DNA of 35,349 nucleotides. Origin: Eubacteriales bacterium (lineage in GTDB: Bacteria; Bacillota; Clostridia; Christensenellales; Aristaeellaceae). The notes under the pieces were generated by a model. It made no database searches and was not told the DNA's origin. It saw only the letters and a program-made list of their open reading frames with translations. Of this stretch, positions 22,867-27,994 are shown piece after piece. Position 1 is the first letter of the stretch. Every line of letters starts with the position of its first letter. The translations under genes were made by a program, and so were the position numbers. The stretch lies in the NCBI GenBank assembly GCA_031555975.1, contig JAVBTW010000276.1, positions 1-35,349 of the forward strand, read 5' to 3'.

Positions 22867-23640
22867 TTAGGCTGTTTTCGAGAGGCGCACCTTGTCGGCC
22901 ACCAGGGCGATGAATTCGCCATTGCTCGGCTTTCGCGCCGCTTCGTGATGGGGGATGCCCAACAATGACCTGAAATTCTCCAGGTTGTTTCGTTGCCAGG
23001 TGATGGATATCGCATGTCTGATCGAGCGCTCTACCTTGGACGACGTCGTACCAAATGCTTGCGCCACTGTCGGGTACAGTTCCTTCGTTATATAATGAAT
23101 CGTCTCCCAATTGTCCGCCACCAAGCGCACTGCTTCCTTTAAGTAGTCATAACCCTGCACATGAGACGGGACGCCGATCCCGAGAAACAATTCGTTTATC
23201 CGCTCAACAATCCCACGTTCACAGCTGGGCTGCACCGCATGCATCCAGCCGCTTCGCTCCGCTGATTCGCCCATGTGCAGCATACACACGCGCTGATGCA
23301 GCACCTCGTAATCAAACGGTTTCAACATATAAAAGCTCGCGCCCAAGTCCATCGCGCGCGCGATGCAATCGTCCTTTCCCATGGCGCTCAGCACGATCAC
23401 GCGCGGTCGCTCACCCGGCAAGCCCAACAACTTTTCGAGATAACAGAACCCATCGTGGATCGGCATCACCAGGTCCAGCACCACAACGTCTGGATGCTGA
23501 CGCAGCGTCACCTCAAACGCTTCCGCGCCATTTGATGCAGTGCCCACCACCTTCACACCGTCCTTGCGCTGAAAGTAGTCCGACATGCTCTTACGGATCC
23601 CTTCGTTGTCGTCGCAGATCAACATCTTGATCGTGTCCAT
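22867..23640 (-). CDS. spo0A: Sporulation master response regulator Spo0A
   Basis: The receiver domain has ICDDNEG, VVVLDLVMPIHDG and a LSAMG-type motif. The Spo0A-specific C-terminal domain is present: GVPSHVQGYDYLKEAV, ITKELYPTVAQAFGTTSSKVERSIRHAI and KPSNGEFIALVADK. The start was trimmed to the ATG at 23640, after AAAGGGGGG. Confidence 0.95.
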   Translation of the reverse strand: MDTIKMLICDDNEGIRKSMSDYFQRKDGVKVVGTASNGAEAFEVTLRQHPDVVVLDLVMPIHDGFCYLEKLLGLPGERPRVIVLSAMGKDDCIARAMDLGASFYMLKPFDYEVLHQRVCMLHMGESAERSGWMHAVQPSCERGIVERINELFLGIGVPSHVQGYDYLKEAVRLVADNWETIHYITKELYPTVAQAFGTTSSKVERSIRHAISITWQRNNLENFRSLLGIPHHEAARKPSNGEFIALVADKVRLSKTA

Positions 23641-23680
23641 GGCCAGTCCCCCCTTTGATACATGCCGCGAACCACACGCG

Positions 23681-23687
23681 TTCGCCA
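23681..23687 (-). promoter_or_regulatory. 0A-box match (TGGCGAA) at the predicted spo0A transcription start
   Basis: The minus strand reads TGGCGAA, which fits TGNCGAA. It begins 3 nt downstream of the extended -10 element. Confidence 0.5.
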
Positions 23688-23689
23688 CG

Positions 23690-23698
23690 ATTATAGCA
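23690..23698 (-). promoter_or_regulatory. Extended -10 promoter element (TGcTATAAT) proximal to spo0A
   Basis: The minus strand reads TGCTATAAT, about 50 nt upstream of the spo0A ATG. The -35 is weak (TTTCAT at a 17-nt spacing). Confidence 0.6.
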
Positions 23699-23807
23699 TG
23701 CAGGTCTCAAAAATGAAACCGTCATTTTATTAAGATGATACGCACCCAGCACAGTGCGGCAACATATTGACCGACTGAGTTCTCTATGTACCATATCTAT
23801 ACCGATT

Positions 23808-23824
23808 TGACGAACATTGTCGAA
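23808..23824 (+). promoter_or_regulatory. Tandem direct 0A boxes (TGACGAA and TGTCGAA) with starts 10 bp apart
   Basis: The plus strand reads TGACGAAcatTGTCGAA. Both boxes fit TGNCGAA and the second is the perfect consensus. The 10-bp phasing fits head-to-tail Spo0A dimer sites. Confidence 0.55.
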
Positions 23825-23894
23825 TCTTGCTGTATGTGTTCGATCAGAACTGGCACGGTTTTGGACACAATACCAGGAAATTGGCATTTCTACG

Positions 23895-23928
23895 TTGACT
23901 TCCTGATTTGGCGGGACTATAATAGTCC
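23895..23928 (+). promoter_or_regulatory. Near-consensus sigma-A promoter for the tandem kinase-like genes, with a 15-bp palindrome over the -10
   Basis: TTGACT (23895-23900), a 17-nt spacer and TATAAT (23918-23923). GGACTATaATAGTCC (23914-23928) is a perfect 7+7 inverted repeat centred on the -10. The predicted 5' UTR is about 150 nt. Confidence 0.7.
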
Positions 23929-23982
23929 AGATTCATTATGACACCTGCACGGTGCGATAAATGTTAATTTTAACAAACAAAT

Positions 23983-23989
23983 TTCGACA
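23983..23989 (-). promoter_or_regulatory. 0A-box match (TGTCGAA, minus strand) inside the predicted 5' UTR of the kinase-like operon
   Basis: The plus strand TTCGACA is the reverse complement of the perfect TGTCGAA box. Confidence 0.45.
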
Positions 23990-24083
23990 CTGAATTATTA
24001 CGCGTGTGCACACCCGTGAAAGAAATGATGGACTCCCCGCCCAATCCTGCATTGAACGGTCCTACAAAGGAACAGGTGGATAA

Positions 24084-25406
24084 ATGCATACAAACACAGT
24101 CGTTTCCGGTCCCATAGGTCCCATCTGGACCTGCGCCGTGGTCATCGCTTCGTATGTCAACATGCTCTTGATTGCGAAGCTGATTTCGCATGTCTATCAT
24201 GAGCCCATCAGCATCAAGCGCCGACTGGCCTTCGCAGCGCTGGCGGGTGGGCTTTCCGCCAGCACCTGGGCCTTCGGCGCGGGCCTGTTTGGTAGCCTGC
24301 CGCTGTCCAATCTGGCCCACTTCGCGCTCAGCACCGTGAATCCTCTGCTGGCGATGGCTTACTACTACATCGCCTCCAGAGTCCTGCACTTGCCCGCCGT
24401 GCACTCGATCCGAATGATGGGCCATATCTATCTGCTGGACATGCTCGTCATCGCCATAAGCCGCTTTGCAGTCAGGATCCTTTCCGGCCCGAACGCGGAC
24501 CATATGACGCTCGTCACGCTCGACAAGCTTGCCTCCCTCGCAGTGCTGTCGCTGGTCTATCTCTGTGTGCGTATCTATCAACGCGCATCGGGCTTTCACA
24601 TCAGCCTCAGCGACAAGGCCAGCCCCAACGTCCATCGCGAACTGCTCCTGTACATGATCCGCACCTCTTTCGCCTACATCGTCGCAGTCGTCGTACCGTT
24701 GTGCCTCGCCAATCCGCTGACTGTACAACGGTTGCTCATCATCATCTTTGCGCTATTGCTGCTGCTGGACATCCAAATCGACCTGCGGCGCGCCATGGCG
24801 TTGCGGTTGGAGAACAAGAAGGCGCACATCAATGCTCTGACCGCCGCGATGGAAGAGTTTTCGCAGGTCAAGCATGACTTTTTTAACATTTTACAGACCT
24901 ACCAGGGGTACATCTCCATGGGCGATTTGGATCAGCTGAAGCGCTATCATGCCACGCTCGCCAACTACACCTTGAAGGCTGACAATCGCATGGCGCTCAC
25001 CGCACGCGCGGAGGAACACCCTCAACTGGTCCAACTGTTGACCAAGCGCGCGGAACTGGCCGAGCATCGCGGTGTGCGGTTGTACATTGACATACAGGTC
25101 GATTTGCAGCATCTGCTCTTGGCCCCAGAGGAATTGTGCAAAGTCGCAGCACTCCTGCTGGACAACGCGATCGACGAGGCGTCTCAATCCCCTATGCGCC
25201 ATGTGTTTTTTTCCATTGAGGCCAAACCTCATGACGAACGCCTTTTGACGGTCTCCCACAGCACCACGAGTCCGAACGAACATAGTCCAGCCCTCATCCA
25301 TGTGCGTCACATTCTGGCCAAACACACCAACTGCGCGTTTCACACCGCGTATTACGACAGCGAGTTTTCCACATACCTGGGCATTTGCCCGCCGTTCACC
25401 GCCTAG
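24084..25406 (+). CDS. Polytopic membrane sensor-kinase-like protein P1: Spo0B/AgrC-type DHp with H-box His, GHKL domain lacking the ATP-lid G-box
   Basis: It has 6-7 predicted TM helices, then LRLENKKAHINAL. The H-box is VKHDFFNILQTYQGY, with the His codon at 24873-24875. The N-box is LLLDNAIDEA. Relative to its paralog, 15 residues are missing where the F/G-box (ERPGVSSKPGHMGQGL) should be. Confidence 0.8.
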   Translation: MHTNTVVSGPIGPIWTCAVVIASYVNMLLIAKLISHVYHEPISIKRRLAFAALAGGLSASTWAFGAGLFGSLPLSNLAHFALSTVNPLLAMAYYYIASRVLHLPAVHSIRMMGHIYLLDMLVIAISRFAVRILSGPNADHMTLVTLDKLASLAVLSLVYLCVRIYQRASGFHISLSDKASPNVHRELLLYMIRTSFAYIVAVVVPLCLANPLTVQRLLIIIFALLLLLDIQIDLRRAMALRLENKKAHINALTAAMEEFSQVKHDFFNILQTYQGYISMGDLDQLKRYHATLANYTLKADNRMALTARAEEHPQLVQLLTKRAELAEHRGVRLYIDIQVDLQHLLLAPEELCKVAALLLDNAIDEASQSPMRHVFFSIEAKPHDERLLTVSHSTTSPNEHSPALIHVRHILAKHTNCAFHTAYYDSEFSTYLGICPPFTA

Positions 25407-25415
25407 CGGAGAAAG

Positions 25416-26768
25416 TTGAGCATCATGTACCTAAACATCGCCTACTCGAGCGCCATGCGGCTCATCTCGATGAGCGTATCATTCATCAACGTGTACTTGT
25501 TGATGTACTTGATCGCAAAACTGATCGAGGACATCTATTTTACACAGTTCCCTGTCAAACGAAAGCTGCTGTTTGCGCTTCTTTCTGGCACTGTTTTGAA
25601 TGATGCTTGGCGCTTCGGTCTGAGCGCGCTCTCGCCACTCGCCAAAACACTCTTGTCCGCCGACAACCCGGTCTTTGCACTGCTGTTTTATTTGATCGGT
25701 ATTCTCGTGCTCAACCTGCCATCGCGCCATGCAGGGCGGCTGATGGGGCATGCGTTCCTGTATTACATAATTACAAGTGTTTTTTGCCGCCTGGTCGCGT
25801 CACTGCTCTTCATACAACAGCCCGGACCCCGCAACCATCTGATGGATGCGGTCCAGCAACTGACCGCCACAGCCATCATGGTGATGATGAGTGCGATCAC
25901 TGTGCGCTGGCTGCGCCTGATTGGGTACAGCGCAAGTCTGGCGGACCAAGTGCCCGACAAACCTCGGCGCGGCCTGTTGATTTATACGCTGAACGCGACA
26001 TTTGTGTTTGTGTTGTGTACATGGGTGCCTGAGACCACGGAGAACCAGGCGGTGGCCAACGCGCTTTTGATGATCACCTTTGTGTTGCTGTTTTTGTTTG
26101 GCGTACAGTTGGAAATCAAGGATGCCATTGCCGTGCGCCTGGAAAACAAAAACGTACACAGCAACGCGCTCAGGAACACGATTGAAGAGTTTTCCGGCAT
26201 CAAGCGCAACTTTCACTCCATCCTGCAGGGCTATCAGCGGCACCTGAGCAAAGGGGATCTGGAAGGACTGCGCCAGTATCATGACGCGCTCATGGATCAG
26301 ACCGTGCGCGCGGACGGCGAGATGCAGCTCAGCCGCCGCATGGAAGAAAACCCGGCGCTGGTCGCGCTGCTCATCAACAAAGCCGAGGCCGCAAAGCAGA
26401 AGGATCTGCGGCTGCGCCTAGACATCCAGACCAGCCTTTGTGGACTCGCCATCAGCAACCTGGACCTGTGCCGCGTCGTTGCATGCCTGCTCGACAACGC
26501 CCTCGAAGCCGCGCAGGAATCGGACCAGCGTCTGATCCACTTCTCCATCGAATACAAGCCCGCAGGTGGGCGGCTGATCATCCTTTCCAACAGCACGGGC
26601 CACCCGGTGGACGTGCGCGACATCGAACGGCCAGGCGTCTCCAGCAAGCCCGGACACATGGGCCAGGGACTGCCCTCGGTAAGAAAGACCTTGGCGAAAT
26701 ACGAAAACTGTACGCTGCACACCTCATACTACGACGGCGGCTTCTTCGCCTACCTCGCCATCGGCTGA
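25416..26768 (+). CDS. Polytopic membrane sensor-kinase-like protein P2: paralog with intact GHKL N- and G-boxes but non-canonical H-box
   Basis: It starts 9 nt after P1, in the same architecture. The H-box position reads IKRNFHSILQGYQRH: Arg (26205-26207) replaces the canonical His and a His lies 3 residues later (26214-26216). The N-box is CLLDNALEAA and the ATP-lid is PGVSSKPGHMGQGLPSV (26652-26672). The start is either the TTG at 25416 or the ATG at 25425. Confidence 0.8.
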   Translation: MSIMYLNIAYSSAMRLISMSVSFINVYLLMYLIAKLIEDIYFTQFPVKRKLLFALLSGTVLNDAWRFGLSALSPLAKTLLSADNPVFALLFYLIGILVLNLPSRHAGRLMGHAFLYYIITSVFCRLVASLLFIQQPGPRNHLMDAVQQLTATAIMVMMSAITVRWLRLIGYSASLADQVPDKPRRGLLIYTLNATFVFVLCTWVPETTENQAVANALLMITFVLLFLFGVQLEIKDAIAVRLENKNVHSNALRNTIEEFSGIKRNFHSILQGYQRHLSKGDLEGLRQYHDALMDQTVRADGEMQLSRRMEENPALVALLINKAEAAKQKDLRLRLDIQTSLCGLAISNLDLCRVVACLLDNALEAAQESDQRLIHFSIEYKPAGGRLIILSNSTGHPVDVRDIERPGVSSKPGHMGQGLPSVRKTLAKYENCTLHTSYYDGGFFAYLAIG

Positions 26769-26911: not shown

Positions 26912-27229
26912 CTATTCGTCTTCGTCTTCAGCGCGCTCTAACTCCTCTTCGTCCGCTTCGGCGATCTCCAAGTACCGCTCAAAGATCCGCTCGAGCAATT
27001 CCTCGTCCTCGACGCCGACGTACACGTCATCGTCTTCATGCTCTCCGTCCTGAATCTCCAAAATGACGACTTCATCCTCGCCGATCCCTTCGATGTCGTC
27101 AATCGGCGCCAGCAGCACGTACTGCTTTCCTTCAAATTCCAGCGTCATCAGATGCTCGAACTTGACCGGCTTGCCCTCTTCGTCCACCAGTTCCACGATG
27201 CTATTCTCGTCCACCATGTACCCATCCAT
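26912..27229 (-). CDS. DUF1292 family protein (YrzB-like), acidic C-terminus
   Basis: VELVDEEGKPVKFEHLMTLEFEGKQYVLLAPIDD...VVILEI is typical of DUF1292. The synteny downstream of ruvX is conserved. Confidence 0.85.
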   Translation of the reverse strand: MDGYMVDENSIVELVDEEGKPVKFEHLMTLEFEGKQYVLLAPIDDIEGIGEDEVVILEIQDGEHEDDDVYVGVEDEELLERIFERYLEIAEADEEELERAEDEDE

Positions 27230-27255
27230 GATTGCTGTCCTCCACCATCTATCAT

Positions 27256-27681
27256 CTACAATCTCGACAGCCCGCCGCCGTCAATAAAGACTTGCAGTAT
27301 CAGCCCCGCGGCCATCTTGTCGATGACGTCCTTGCGCTTGCCTCGCCGTACGTCCGCCTCAATCAGCACCTTCCGCGCGCTCGCGGTTGTCAACCGCTCG
27401 TCTTGGTAGATCACGCGGTATCCTTCGTCAGAAAGCCGGTCTCCAACTGAACGCACACGCGCGGCCTGAAACCCCTCGCTGCCGTCCATGTTCCGCGGCA
27501 GGCCGCAGACAATCGCCGCCACGCCGTATTGGGCCGCCAACTCGCGAACCCGGGCCAAGTCCTTTTCCACACCGCGGGACTCAATCGTCTCAACCCCCTG
27601 GGCAGTGATCCCCAGCAGGTCAGAAACCGCCACGCCAATCCGGCGCTCACCCACGTCCAGGCACAATGCGCGCTTCGTCAT
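27256..27681 (-). CDS. ruvX: Putative pre-16S rRNA nuclease / Holliday junction resolvase-like YqgF
   Basis: It has [17 protein letters not shown] and [11 protein letters not shown], and family-typical length. The ATG overlaps the ireB stop (ATGA). Confidence 0.9.
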
Positions 27682-27944
27682 CGTTTCTCGTGCATCTCGA
27701 TGTAGAACCGCACCAGTTCCTCCAGGATCTCGTCCCGCTCAAGCCGCCGAATAAGCGACCGCGCGTTGTTGAAGCTGGTGATGTACGTCGGATCACCCGA
27801 CACGATGTAGCCCACGATCTGCATGATCGGGTCGTGGCCCTTGGCTTTCAGCGATTGGTAGACCGACAGAATGATGTCCTCCGCCGATCCTGATAGGTCG
27901 GTTGGGAGGTTAAACTTGCTGGTCTCCGTGAGTCTGCCGTTCAT
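27678..27944 (-). CDS. ireB: IreB-family regulatory phosphoprotein (DUF965/YrzL)
   Basis: [53 protein letters not shown] matches the family. The start was moved to the ATG at 27944, whereas the track ORF begins at a TTG at 27962. Confidence 0.88.
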
Positions 27945-27994
27945 GATGCCACCGCCCTTCAAGCCTGCTGTATAATCATACGGATACCATTATA

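What the first reader, a model, noticed from the sequence alone, without database searches (positions are those of the whole stretch)
23641..24083. Shared spo0A / kinase-pair control region with four 0A boxes and an operator-like palindrome over a consensus -10
This 443-bp intergenic region is visibly more AT-rich than the rest of the window. It contains an extended -10 (TGcTATAAT) for spo0A, with a TGGCGAA box at the predicted start site. A tandem pair TGACGAA-n3-TGTCGAA is phased 10 bp apart. A further TGTCGAA lies on the other strand, inside the predicted 150-nt leader of the P1-P2 operon. With 6 fixed bases, roughly 0.2 matches would be expected by chance on both strands of 443 bp, assuming equal base frequencies. 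Four are present. The P1-P2 promoter (TTGACT-17-TATAAT) has a perfect 7+7 palindrome GGACTATaATAGTCC centred on its -10, which looks like a repressor operator. Inference: Spo0A~P autoregulates spo0A and also regulates its candidate kinase pair, giving a feedback loop. A second unknown dimeric regulator may gate the kinase promoter.
Basis: partly seen in the sequence, partly recalled or inferred. Interest (0 to 1): 0.62.

Follow-up and report, generated by a model that had tools for sequence, protein, structure and literature searches.

The report
Spo0A-paralogue control region, one conserved operator
The DNA between a second copy of the sporulation master regulator Spo0A and its two neighbouring kinase genes holds two conserved promoters and one conserved double Spo0A binding site, so self-regulation is likely; the other two "boxes" and the palindrome look like chance.

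Summary
Four TGNCGAA boxes in 443 bp is about 8 times the rate in this genome's AT-rich DNA.

Two orthologous loci were compared: a same-genus MAG and a Logan contig. Only the tandem pair at 23808-23824 is conserved (TGACGAA or TCGCGAA, 3 bp, TGTCGAA). It is the most conserved 17 bp of the whole spacer (15/17 invariant; P about 0.0002 by shuffling). A perfect tandem of this form occurs only once in the 2.68-Mb assembly.

Both predicted promoters are also conserved: TGnTATAAT for spo0A and TTGACT-17/18-TATAAT for the kinases.

The box at the predicted spo0A start, the box in the kinase leader and the 7+7 palindrome are not conserved. The palindrome is unique in the genome and matches the chance extreme among 147 TATAATA sites.

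The "spo0A" is a long-branch paralogue. The genus has up to four Spo0A-family genes. This one travels with the two AgrC-like kinases as a three-gene cassette.

Verdict: this is a real shared control region with one probable Spo0A operator, a known mechanism in an unusual setting. The scan has noted 0A boxes upstream of another Spo0A paralogue before, on other DNA.

The parts
22867..23640 (-). Spo0A-family response regulator, 'a-type' paralogue, 257 aa. It has a REC domain with an intact DD...D...S...K set and a Spo0A_C domain. Its recognition helix reads SKVERSIRHAIS.
   Evidence: TIGR02875 256.8 bits against a cut-off of 200. PF00072 plus PF08769. Gapless alignment to 1FC3/1LQ1. Long-branch clade in the tree.
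23641..24083 (.). AT-rich (44.7% GC) divergent control region of the spo0A / P1-P2 cassette.
   Evidence: Aligned with two orthologous regions in alignment A1.
23690..23698 (-). Extended -10 TGCTATAAT for spo0A. A weak -35-like TTTCAT/GTTTCA lies at 23713-23719. The predicted start is near 23683, giving a leader of about 43 nt.
   Evidence: Conserved as TGnTATAAT in all three loci. 148 of the 518 TATAAT sites in the genome carry TGn. The transcript start is not mapped.
23681..23687 (-). TGGCGAA box at the predicted spo0A start. It is specific to this window and is probably chance.
   Evidence: Present. Absent from G001 and L035.
23760..23769 (.). CAACATATTG, a perfect palindrome CAATATATTG in L035 and CAATATATCG (one mismatch) in G001. 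It is a conserved island of unknown role about 80 bp upstream of the predicted spo0A start.
   Evidence: The same core lies upstream of nrdD on C266.
23808..23824 (+). Tandem 0A operator TGACGAA-CAT-TGTCGAA. It is the probable binding site for a Spo0A~P dimer.
   Evidence: It is the only perfect TGNCGAA-N3-TGNCGAA in 2.68 Mb. It is the most conserved 17-bp window of the spacer, 15/17 invariant, shuffle P 0.0002. TGTCGAA is invariant and the partner box is TCGCGAA in both relatives. Its distance to the spo0A -10 is fixed at 121-122 bp.
23895..23923 (+). P1-P2 promoter TTGACT-17-TATAAT, 11 of 12 consensus positions. The predicted start is near 23930.
   Evidence: Both hexamers are invariant in the three loci, with a spacer of 17/17/18.
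23914..23928 (.). Perfect 7+7 palindrome GGACTATaATAGTCC over the -10. It is most likely a chance extension of the self-complementary TATAATA.
   Evidence: Unique in the genome. Arm matches are 5/7 in L035 and 3/7 in G001. The arm-length distribution of 147 TATAATA sites predicts about 0.6 sites with arms of 7 or more.
23983..23989 (-). TGTCGAA in the P1-P2 leader. It is specific to this window. The leader itself is poorly conserved, roughly 150, 130 and 95 nt long in the three loci.
   Evidence: No Rfam match.
24084..25406 (+). P1, a polytopic AgrC/HPK10-like kinase paralogue. The H-box KHDFFNILQ is intact. The ATP-lid/G2 segment is deleted.
   Evidence: PF14689 at 24.4 bits, below the cut-off. 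49% identity to the G001 orthologue. Motif table.
25416..26768 (+). P2, a paralogue of P1 (37% identity). The GHKL domain is intact with G2 GHMGQGL. The H-box is degenerate (KRNFHSILQ). The true start is probably the ATG at 25425.
   Evidence: PF14501 at 44.3 bits..

Best explanation
The 443-bp spacer is the shared control region of a three-gene cassette. The cassette is a Spo0A paralogue transcribed leftwards and two AgrC-like kinase paralogues (P1, P2) transcribed rightwards.

Shown by sequence and comparison:
- Two near-consensus sigma-A-type promoters are conserved: an extended -10 for spo0A and TTGACT-17-TATAAT for P1-P2.
- One tandem 0A operator (a partner box, 3 bp, then TGTCGAA) is conserved and is the most constrained element of the spacer.

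Inferred:
- A phosphorylated Spo0A-family dimer binds the tandem site. This could be the cassette's own protein or another paralogue with the same E-R..R-H recognition helix.
- Binding modulates transcription of the paralogue's own gene, giving autoregulation.
- The site may secondarily affect the divergent kinase operon.
- The sign of the effect and the way a site about 133 bp upstream of the predicted spo0A start acts are unknown.

The TGGCGAA at the spo0A start, the TGTCGAA in the kinase leader and the 7+7 palindrome over the kinase -10 are most likely chance features of this one genome.
For: - Motifs are present at the stated coordinates.
- Gene identity: TIGR02875 256.8 bits against a cut-off of 200, with REC plus Spo0A_C domains. 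The recognition helix aligns without gaps to 1FC3/1LQ1, with E, R, R and H identical.
- The cassette and its divergent layout are conserved in G001 and in Logan contig L035, and homology stops at the cassette ends.
- In the alignment of the three spacers (about 50% pairwise identity), the top-ranked 17-bp window is AACATTGTCGAATCTTG, with 15/17 invariant and P(max >= 15) = 0.0002. The kinase -10 and -35 rank next.
- The perfect tandem is unique in the genome.
- The distance from the box to the spo0A -10 is 122/121/122 bp.
- The sister Spo0A locus has no kinases but carries TGTCGAt-N5-TGTCGAA at the same distance and orientation.
- The motif is in use in this organism. The only other AT-rich cluster of 4 or more boxes is the spoIIGA-sigE upstream region, with four perfect TGTCGAA.
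- TGTCGAA ranks 46th of 630 same-composition heptamers in AT-rich DNA.
- Box density upstream of Spo0A-family genes in the sampled loci (mostly Christensenellales) is 2.4/kb, against 0.76/kb for the G000 genome as a whole.
- Literature: Spo0A autoregulates through 0A boxes in B. subtilis (PMC12090719). It binds its own upstream DNA with high affinity in C. difficile, where G2, C4 and G5 are the contact bases (PMC3485338). Footprinted sites are a consensus box plus an imperfect box 3 bp away, including one between divergent promoters (PMC2731898).
Against: - Only three orthologous spacers exist in the public data that were searched, and two of them are close kin of each other.
- In both relatives the partner box is TCGCGAA, which changes the contact base G2.
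- The site lies about 133 bp upstream of the predicted spo0A start and about 114 bp upstream of the predicted P1-P2 start. This is further than classical Spo0A activation or repression sites.
- No conserved promoter closer to the site was found.
- It is unknown which of the up to four paralogues binds.
- The assembly is 79.5% complete and lacks the genus's canonical-looking copy.
Confidence: 0.6

Rival explanations
1. All four boxes are functional Spo0A sites that autoregulate spo0A and control the kinase operon. The 7+7 palindrome is the operator of a second, dimeric repressor that gates the kinase promoter.
For: Four boxes in 443 bp is rare in this genome. Only 8 places reach 4, and only two of them are AT-rich. 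The palindrome is perfect and unique. A consensus promoter would plausibly need a repressor. L035 keeps 5 of the 7 arm pairs.
Against: Two of the four boxes are missing from both orthologous spacers. The palindrome arms drop to 3/7 in G001, while the promoter hexamers beside them stay invariant. There is no second copy within 1 mismatch in the genome, so no regulon is visible. Among 147 TATAATA sites the arm lengths decay about 3- to 4-fold per step, so one 7-arm site is expected by chance.
Confidence: 0.1
2. The conserved tandem site acts mainly on the kinase operon, either as an upstream activator or as a roadblock-free enhancer. Spo0A~P would then set the level of its own kinases, and spo0A itself would be constitutive.
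For: The boxes point in the direction of P1-P2. Three of nine other loci of this kinase family have a co-oriented perfect TGTCGAA within 450 bp upstream, including G000:C15. A consensus 0A box between divergent phage promoters affects both (PMC2731898).
Against: The distance to the kinase -35 shifts by 7-8 bp between loci (70/62/63), while the distance to the spo0A -10 is fixed. The kinase-less sister locus keeps the boxes. An 11/12 consensus promoter should not need an activator. The 3-of-9 count is only borderline (my binomial estimate, P about 0.01-0.08).
Confidence: 0.2
3. The conserved block is not a Spo0A site. It would instead be the target of another regulator, or part of an unrecognised promoter, and its match to the 0A consensus would be coincidental.
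For: The partner box lacks G2 in two of the three loci. The site sits unusually far from both predicted starts. Direct CGAA repeats with 10-bp phasing could suit other response regulators.
Against: A 12-position perfect match is expected about 5e-5 times in 443 bp (my estimate at equal base frequencies), and this one is unique in the genome. It lies next to a gene for a protein with a conserved 0A-recognition helix. The same heptamer decorates the spoIIGA-sigE upstream region. It is not a Cheo/LexA box, because the right half does not match. No sigma-H-like -35/-10 was seen by eye on the spo0A strand.
Confidence: 0.1

Closest known systems
Bacillus subtilis spo0A promoter region (Pv/Ps with 0A1-0A4 boxes; PMC12090719)
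   Same: The Spo0A-family gene is preceded by 0A boxes that would create direct transcriptional feedback. The core motif is TGTCGAA.
   Different: Only one conserved tandem site is seen here, not four. There is no sigma-H-type second promoter. The site lies upstream of the single predicted promoter rather than between two promoters. The gene is a paralogue outside the spoIVB-spo0A context.
Clostridioides difficile spo0A upstream region, bound by the Spo0A DNA-binding domain (PMC3485338)
   Same: It is a clostridial Spo0A with conserved DNA-contact residues and a perfect TGTCGAA within about 200-300 bp of its own start codon.
   Different: Binding is shown there by EMSA. Here it is only inferred. 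C. difficile has a single spo0A with no adjacent kinases.
Spo0A sites of phages phi29/Nf: a consensus plus an imperfect 0A box 3 bp apart, one between the divergent A2b/A3 promoters (PMC2731898)
   Same: The site has the same architecture, 7 + 3 + 7 bp with one perfect and one imperfect box, and the same setting between divergently oriented promoters.
   Different: The phage sites overlap or abut the core promoters and repress them. This site is 60-120 bp from either core promoter.
Orphan sporulation histidine kinases of Clostridia that phosphorylate Spo0A directly (PMC6136694, PMC11210211)
   Same: They are candidate membrane kinases feeding a Spo0A-family regulator.
   Different: All verified sporulation kinases are orphans, and many (not all) carry N-terminal PAS domains (PMC6136694). 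P1/P2 are AgrC/HPK10-like (SPOB_a / HATPase_c_5), genetically linked to the regulator, and complementary in their motif losses.

Membership tests
Spo0A (NCBIfam TIGR02875 equivalog) | Whole-protein score above the curated cut-off, with REC plus Spo0A_C domain architecture. | tested here: met
   256.8 bits against a cut-off of 200. PF00072 79.7 bits and PF08769 119.5 bits.
Spo0A (NCBIfam TIGR02875 equivalog) | Conserved recognition helix (S-x-V-E-R-x-I-R-H-A-I) of the 0A-box-binding domain. | tested here: met
   SKVERSIRHAIS aligns without gaps to SRVERAIRHAIE of 1FC3/1LQ1. Which residues contact bases comes from the literature (PMC3485338 and its ref. 13) and was not checked on a structure here.
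Spo0A (NCBIfam TIGR02875 equivalog) | Orthology to the lineage's principal spo0A: tree position following the species, and the spoIVB-spo0A gene order. | tested here: not met
   The gene forms a long-branch clade (stem 1.35) separate from the same-genus b-type copies. spoIVB lies next to a different, highly diverged paralogue on C84. The b-type scores higher, 286-297 bits.
0A-box operator (Spo0A~P dimer site) | Match to the TGTCGAA core, with a second (im)perfect box 3 bp away in direct repeat. | tested here: met
   TGACGAA-CAT-TGTCGAA at 23808-23824. It is the only perfect tandem in the genome. The architecture is as footprinted in PMC2731898.
0A-box operator (Spo0A~P dimer site) | Evolutionary conservation beyond the surrounding spacer. 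| tested here: met
   Met for the tandem, with 15/17 invariant columns and shuffle P 0.0002. Not met for the boxes at 23681 and 23983.
0A-box operator (Spo0A~P dimer site) | Binding by Spo0A and an effect on transcription. | not testable with these tools
   This needs EMSA or footprinting and reporter assays.
Sigma-A-type promoters (extended -10; -35/-10) | Hexamer match, spacing and conservation. | tested here: met
   TGCTATAAT and TTGACT-17-TATAAT. Both are conserved in the three loci.
Sigma-A-type promoters (extended -10; -35/-10) | Transcript 5' ends at the predicted positions. | not testable with these tools
Repressor operator (inverted repeat over a promoter) | Perfect inverted repeat overlapping the core promoter. 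| tested here: met
   GGACTATaATAGTCC at 23914-23928.
Repressor operator (inverted repeat over a promoter) | Conservation in orthologous promoters, recurrence elsewhere in the genome, and excess over chance. | tested here: not met
   Arm matches are 5/7 and 3/7 in the orthologues. There is no other copy within 1 mismatch. About 0.6 such sites are expected among 147 TATAATA sites, and 1 is seen.
AgrC/HPK10-type histidine kinase (P1, P2) | A GHKL HATPase_c_5 domain plus an H-box histidine in a SPOB_a-type helical domain, both in one protein. | tested here: not met
   P2 has HATPase_c_5 at 44.3 bits, but its H-box His is replaced (KRNFHS). P1 has the His (KHDFFN), but SPOB_a scores 24.4 bits, below the 28.1 cut-off, and the G2 lid is deleted. 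Each half is present, but in different proteins.

The most novel reading that the evidence does not exclude
The three genes and their spacer form a portable, self-contained 'second Spo0A' signalling cassette. A split histidine kinase (P1 donates the histidine, P2 supplies the ATPase) phosphorylates a dedicated Spo0A paralogue. The paralogue then binds the conserved tandem 0A operator in its own control region and also reaches the host's 0A-box regulon, for example spoIIGA-sigE. This would be the first Spo0A-family regulator with a genetically linked cognate kinase.
Probability: 0.3. Interest if true: 0.65.

Novelty: new variant of a known kind. Interest (0 to 1): 0.4.

Why it matters
Spo0A feedback through 0A boxes is textbook biology, so the operator itself is not surprising. 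The setting is unusual.

Verified sporulation kinases are all unlinked orphans (PMC6136694). This is why the question of which kinase feeds Spo0A remains hard to answer in most Clostridia. Here a Spo0A-family regulator travels with two candidate kinases and a compact, conserved control region. That gives a small, defined system of three genes and one 17-bp operator. With it, kinase-to-Spo0A specificity and feedback could be tested directly in an uncultured gut lineage (Christensenellales) that carries up to four Spo0A paralogues.

The check also shows that the eye-catching palindrome and half of the boxes should not be pursued.

Tried and rejected
- Rfam scan of 23300-24400 at E <= 1. No match, so there is no known riboswitch or leader.
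- A regulon for the palindrome. There is no other copy in the genome within 1 mismatch. The nearest is a 2-mismatch -10-like site on C112.
- More orthologous spacers. The 5.8-billion-protein search found only two proteins above 51% identity, so footprinting rests on three loci plus one sister.
- Additional promoters next to the tandem site. The candidates from the scan (TTGACC-16-TACCAT on +, TTGCCG-16-TATCAT on -, and the antisense GTGTCA-17-TATAGT inside the palindrome) are not conserved in G001 or L035.
- A sigma-H-type promoter on the spo0A strand. No AGGA...GAAT pattern was seen by eye.
- The conserved block as a Cheo/LexA box (CGAAC-N4-GTTCG). The right half does not match.
- CAATATATTG as an NrdR box. 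The core matches the nrdD upstream site on C266, but only a single, flank-poor copy is present here. It is left as a note.
- Flanking repeats or mobility genes around the cassette. None were found. The neighbours are core genes, DUF1292-ruvX-ireB by my reading of the translation of the sequence.
- Looking for the canonical-type (b) spo0A in this assembly. It is absent, but the assembly is only 79.5% complete.

Full report
**What is there**

The window is a whole 35.3-kb contig (C33) of a 2.68-Mb, 347-contig, 79.5%-complete MAG. Named relatives of its Spo0A place it among the Christensenellales, class Clostridia. One same-order genome has the contig length of Maliibacterium massiliense.

It encodes a 257-aa protein. 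It passes the Spo0A equivalog model (TIGR02875, 256.8 bits against a cut-off of 200) and has REC plus Spo0A_C domains.

Two paralogous polytopic proteins are transcribed divergently: P1 (24084-25406) and P2 (25416-26768), 37% identical to each other. Both resemble AgrC. P2 matches HATPase_c_5. P1 matches only SPOB_a, below the cut-off.

**Checking the observation**

The spacer has 44.7% GC against 59-60%.

The genome's own rate is 0.76/kb, or 0.34 per 443 bp, and 0.48 per AT-rich 443-bp window. Four boxes is still unusual. Only eight places in the assembly reach four, and only two of them are AT-rich.

The second AT-rich place is informative. It is the upstream region of spoIIGA-sigE, with four perfect TGTCGAA. 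spoIIG is the classical Spo0A-activated operon.

TGTCGAA is modestly over-represented in AT-rich DNA relative to equal-composition heptamers. It occurs 22 times against a median of 9, ranking 46th of 630.

**Comparative test**

The huge protein search found only two close relatives of this Spo0A (79% and 76% identity). Everything else is at or below 51%. Both relatives were recovered with their DNA: G001:C32 (L031) and a Logan contig (L035).

Both carry the same layout of P2, P1, spacer and spo0A. Similarity to the window stops exactly at 22867 and 26768. The three genes therefore form a cassette sitting in three different neighbourhoods.

The three spacers are about 50% identical pairwise, so conservation is informative. 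Ranking all 17-bp windows by invariant columns gives this order:
- First is AACATTGTCGAATCTTG, with 15/17 invariant. In 5000 shuffles the maximum reached 15 with P = 0.0002.
- Second is the kinase -10 with the following AGATT, at 14/17.
- Third is the kinase -35, at 12/17.
- Next come the -35/UP region and the extended -10 of spo0A, and a CAAyATATTG palindrome.

TGTCGAA at 23818 is invariant. Its partner 3 bp upstream is TGACGAA here and TCGCGAA in both relatives. The TGGCGAA at the predicted spo0A start and the TGTCGAA in the kinase leader are absent from both relatives. Two boxes against 0.48 expected is within chance (my Poisson estimate, P about 0.08).

A perfect TGNCGAA-N3-TGNCGAA occurs once in the whole assembly, at this site.

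**Which promoter does the site serve?**

The distance from the spo0A -10 to the box is 122/121/122 bp in the three loci. The distance from the box to the kinase -35 is 70/62/63 bp.

The sister Spo0A in the tree (51% identity, GCA_031548365) has no adjacent kinases. It nevertheless has TGTCGAt-N5-TGTCGAA at the same distance (-187) and orientation relative to spo0A.

Both observations tie the site to spo0A. The site lies about 133 bp upstream of the predicted spo0A start and about 114 bp upstream of the predicted kinase start, which is far for direct contact with RNA polymerase. The extra promoter candidates nearer to it are not conserved. The mechanism and the sign of regulation therefore remain inferred.

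Three of nine other loci of this kinase family have a co-oriented perfect TGTCGAA upstream. This is only suggestive.

**The palindrome**

TATAATA is self-complementary, so three of the seven arm pairs come for free. Among the 147 TATAATA sites of the genome the perfect-arm lengths are 3:111, 4:24, 5:8, 6:3 and 7:1. This is a roughly 3- to 4-fold decay per step and predicts about 0.6 sites with arms of 7 or more. The observed one is that extreme.

The palindrome has no second copy in the genome. It is degraded to 5/7 and 3/7 arm pairs in the orthologues, while the adjacent promoter hexamers are invariant. The operator reading is therefore not supported.

**The gene is a paralogue**

A tree of 53 Spo0A-family sequences from 41 related genomes shows up to four types in this genus.
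- The b-type has short branches, follows the species tree and scores 286-297 bits.
- The window's a-type has a stem length of 1.35 and is found only in G000, G001 and L035.
- The c-type scores 189 bits, below the cut-off.
- The d-type scores 119 bits, and its recognition helix is altered to DRLAHGVRRAIE.

Unexpectedly, it is the d-type that sits directly downstream of spoIVB.

G001 has all four types. G000's assembly shows only a and d, which may reflect its incompleteness.

The a-type keeps the acceptor residues and the E-R..R-H recognition helix, and aligns without gaps to 1FC3/1LQ1. It should therefore recognise 0A boxes, as should the b and c types. Which paralogue occupies the tandem site cannot be decided here. 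Multiple spo0A paralogues are rare but recorded in Clostridiales (bioRxiv 10.1101/2022.02.25.481979).

**The kinases**

The P1/P2 family is expanded in this genus and often occurs as tandem pairs. One member lies next to the b-type spo0A of G002. This adds context support for a functional link to Spo0A.

In all three cassettes P1 keeps the H-box but has a deleted or degenerate G2 lid. P2 keeps the G2 box but has a degenerate H-box.

Verified sporulation kinases are all orphans (PMC6136694). A linked pair would therefore be a new arrangement.

**Comparison with what is known**

- Spo0A autoregulation through 0A boxes is established in B. subtilis (PMC12090719).
- Binding upstream of spo0A is shown in C. 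difficile, with G2, C4 and G5 as contact bases (PMC3485338).
- Footprinted Spo0A sites consist of a consensus box plus an imperfect box 3 bp away, and one such site lies between divergent phage promoters (PMC2731898).
- The conserved element here matches that architecture exactly.
- This scan has previously noted 0A boxes in the divergent control region of another Spo0A-like paralogue on other DNA (e1-1404540). I did not test that.

**Verdict**

Probably real:
- the shared control region
- its two promoters
- one tandem Spo0A operator that probably mediates autoregulation of a Spo0A paralogue

Probably chance:
- the box at 23681
- the box at 23983
- the palindrome over the kinase -10

This is a new variant of a known kind, of moderate interest. 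The interest lies mainly in the linked regulator-kinase cassette.

Noticed in passing
G000:C84:17503-19633 (L034/L059); also G001:C108 and G002:C58: spoIVB is followed directly by a highly diverged Spo0A-like gene, the d-type. It scores 119 bits on TIGR02875, its first acidic pair reads SD instead of DD, and its recognition helix is DRLAHGVRRAIE. The ancestral spoIVB-spo0A slot therefore holds the least Spo0A-like paralogue.
   Followed up: partly
window 22867-26768 compared with L031 and L035: spo0A-P1-P2 behaves as a three-gene cassette. Similarity to the two orthologous loci ends exactly at the cassette borders and the flanking genes differ in all three genomes. No repeats or mobility genes were seen at the borders.
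   Followed up: partly
window 24084-26768 (P1, P2) and orthologues in L031 and L035: P1 and P2 show complementary motif loss in all three cassettes. P1 has an intact H-box but a deleted or degenerate G2/ATP lid. P2 has an intact G2 box but a degenerate H-box (His lost in 2 of 3). Other tandem pairs of the family are mostly intact in both motifs; one (Ka of the G001:C119 pair) also has a degenerate ATP lid.
   Followed up: partly
G000:C124:2351-2948 (L057): The spoIIGA-sigE upstream region carries four perfect TGTCGAA boxes. Its TATAAT is preceded by a TTGCTG about 23 nt upstream. From memory, this recalls the over-long spacer of the B. subtilis spoIIG promoter.
   Followed up: partly
window 23760-23769; G000:C266:75-84: A conserved CAAyATATTG palindrome lies about 80 bp upstream of the predicted spo0A start in all three cassettes. 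The same CAATATATTG core lies upstream of nrdD on C266, where it looks like an NrdR box. Its meaning here is unknown.
   Followed up: partly
G002:C114:6904-9233 (L033 2911-5237): In a same-genus genome, a P2-like kinase (35% identity) lies convergent to the canonical-type (b) spo0A. This is a second, independent adjacency of this kinase family to a Spo0A gene.
   Followed up: partly
G000:C15:2381-2437 (L058): Another member of the kinase family in this genome has a TATAAT and, about 40 bp downstream of it, a perfect TGTCGAA in its AT-rich upstream region. This would be a repression-type position if the promoter is real.
   Followed up: no
window 26912-27962: Downstream of P2 there is a hairpin, then minus-strand core genes read by eye as DUF1292, ruvX (yqgF) and ireB. 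The cassette therefore sits in ordinary chromosomal context.
   Followed up: no
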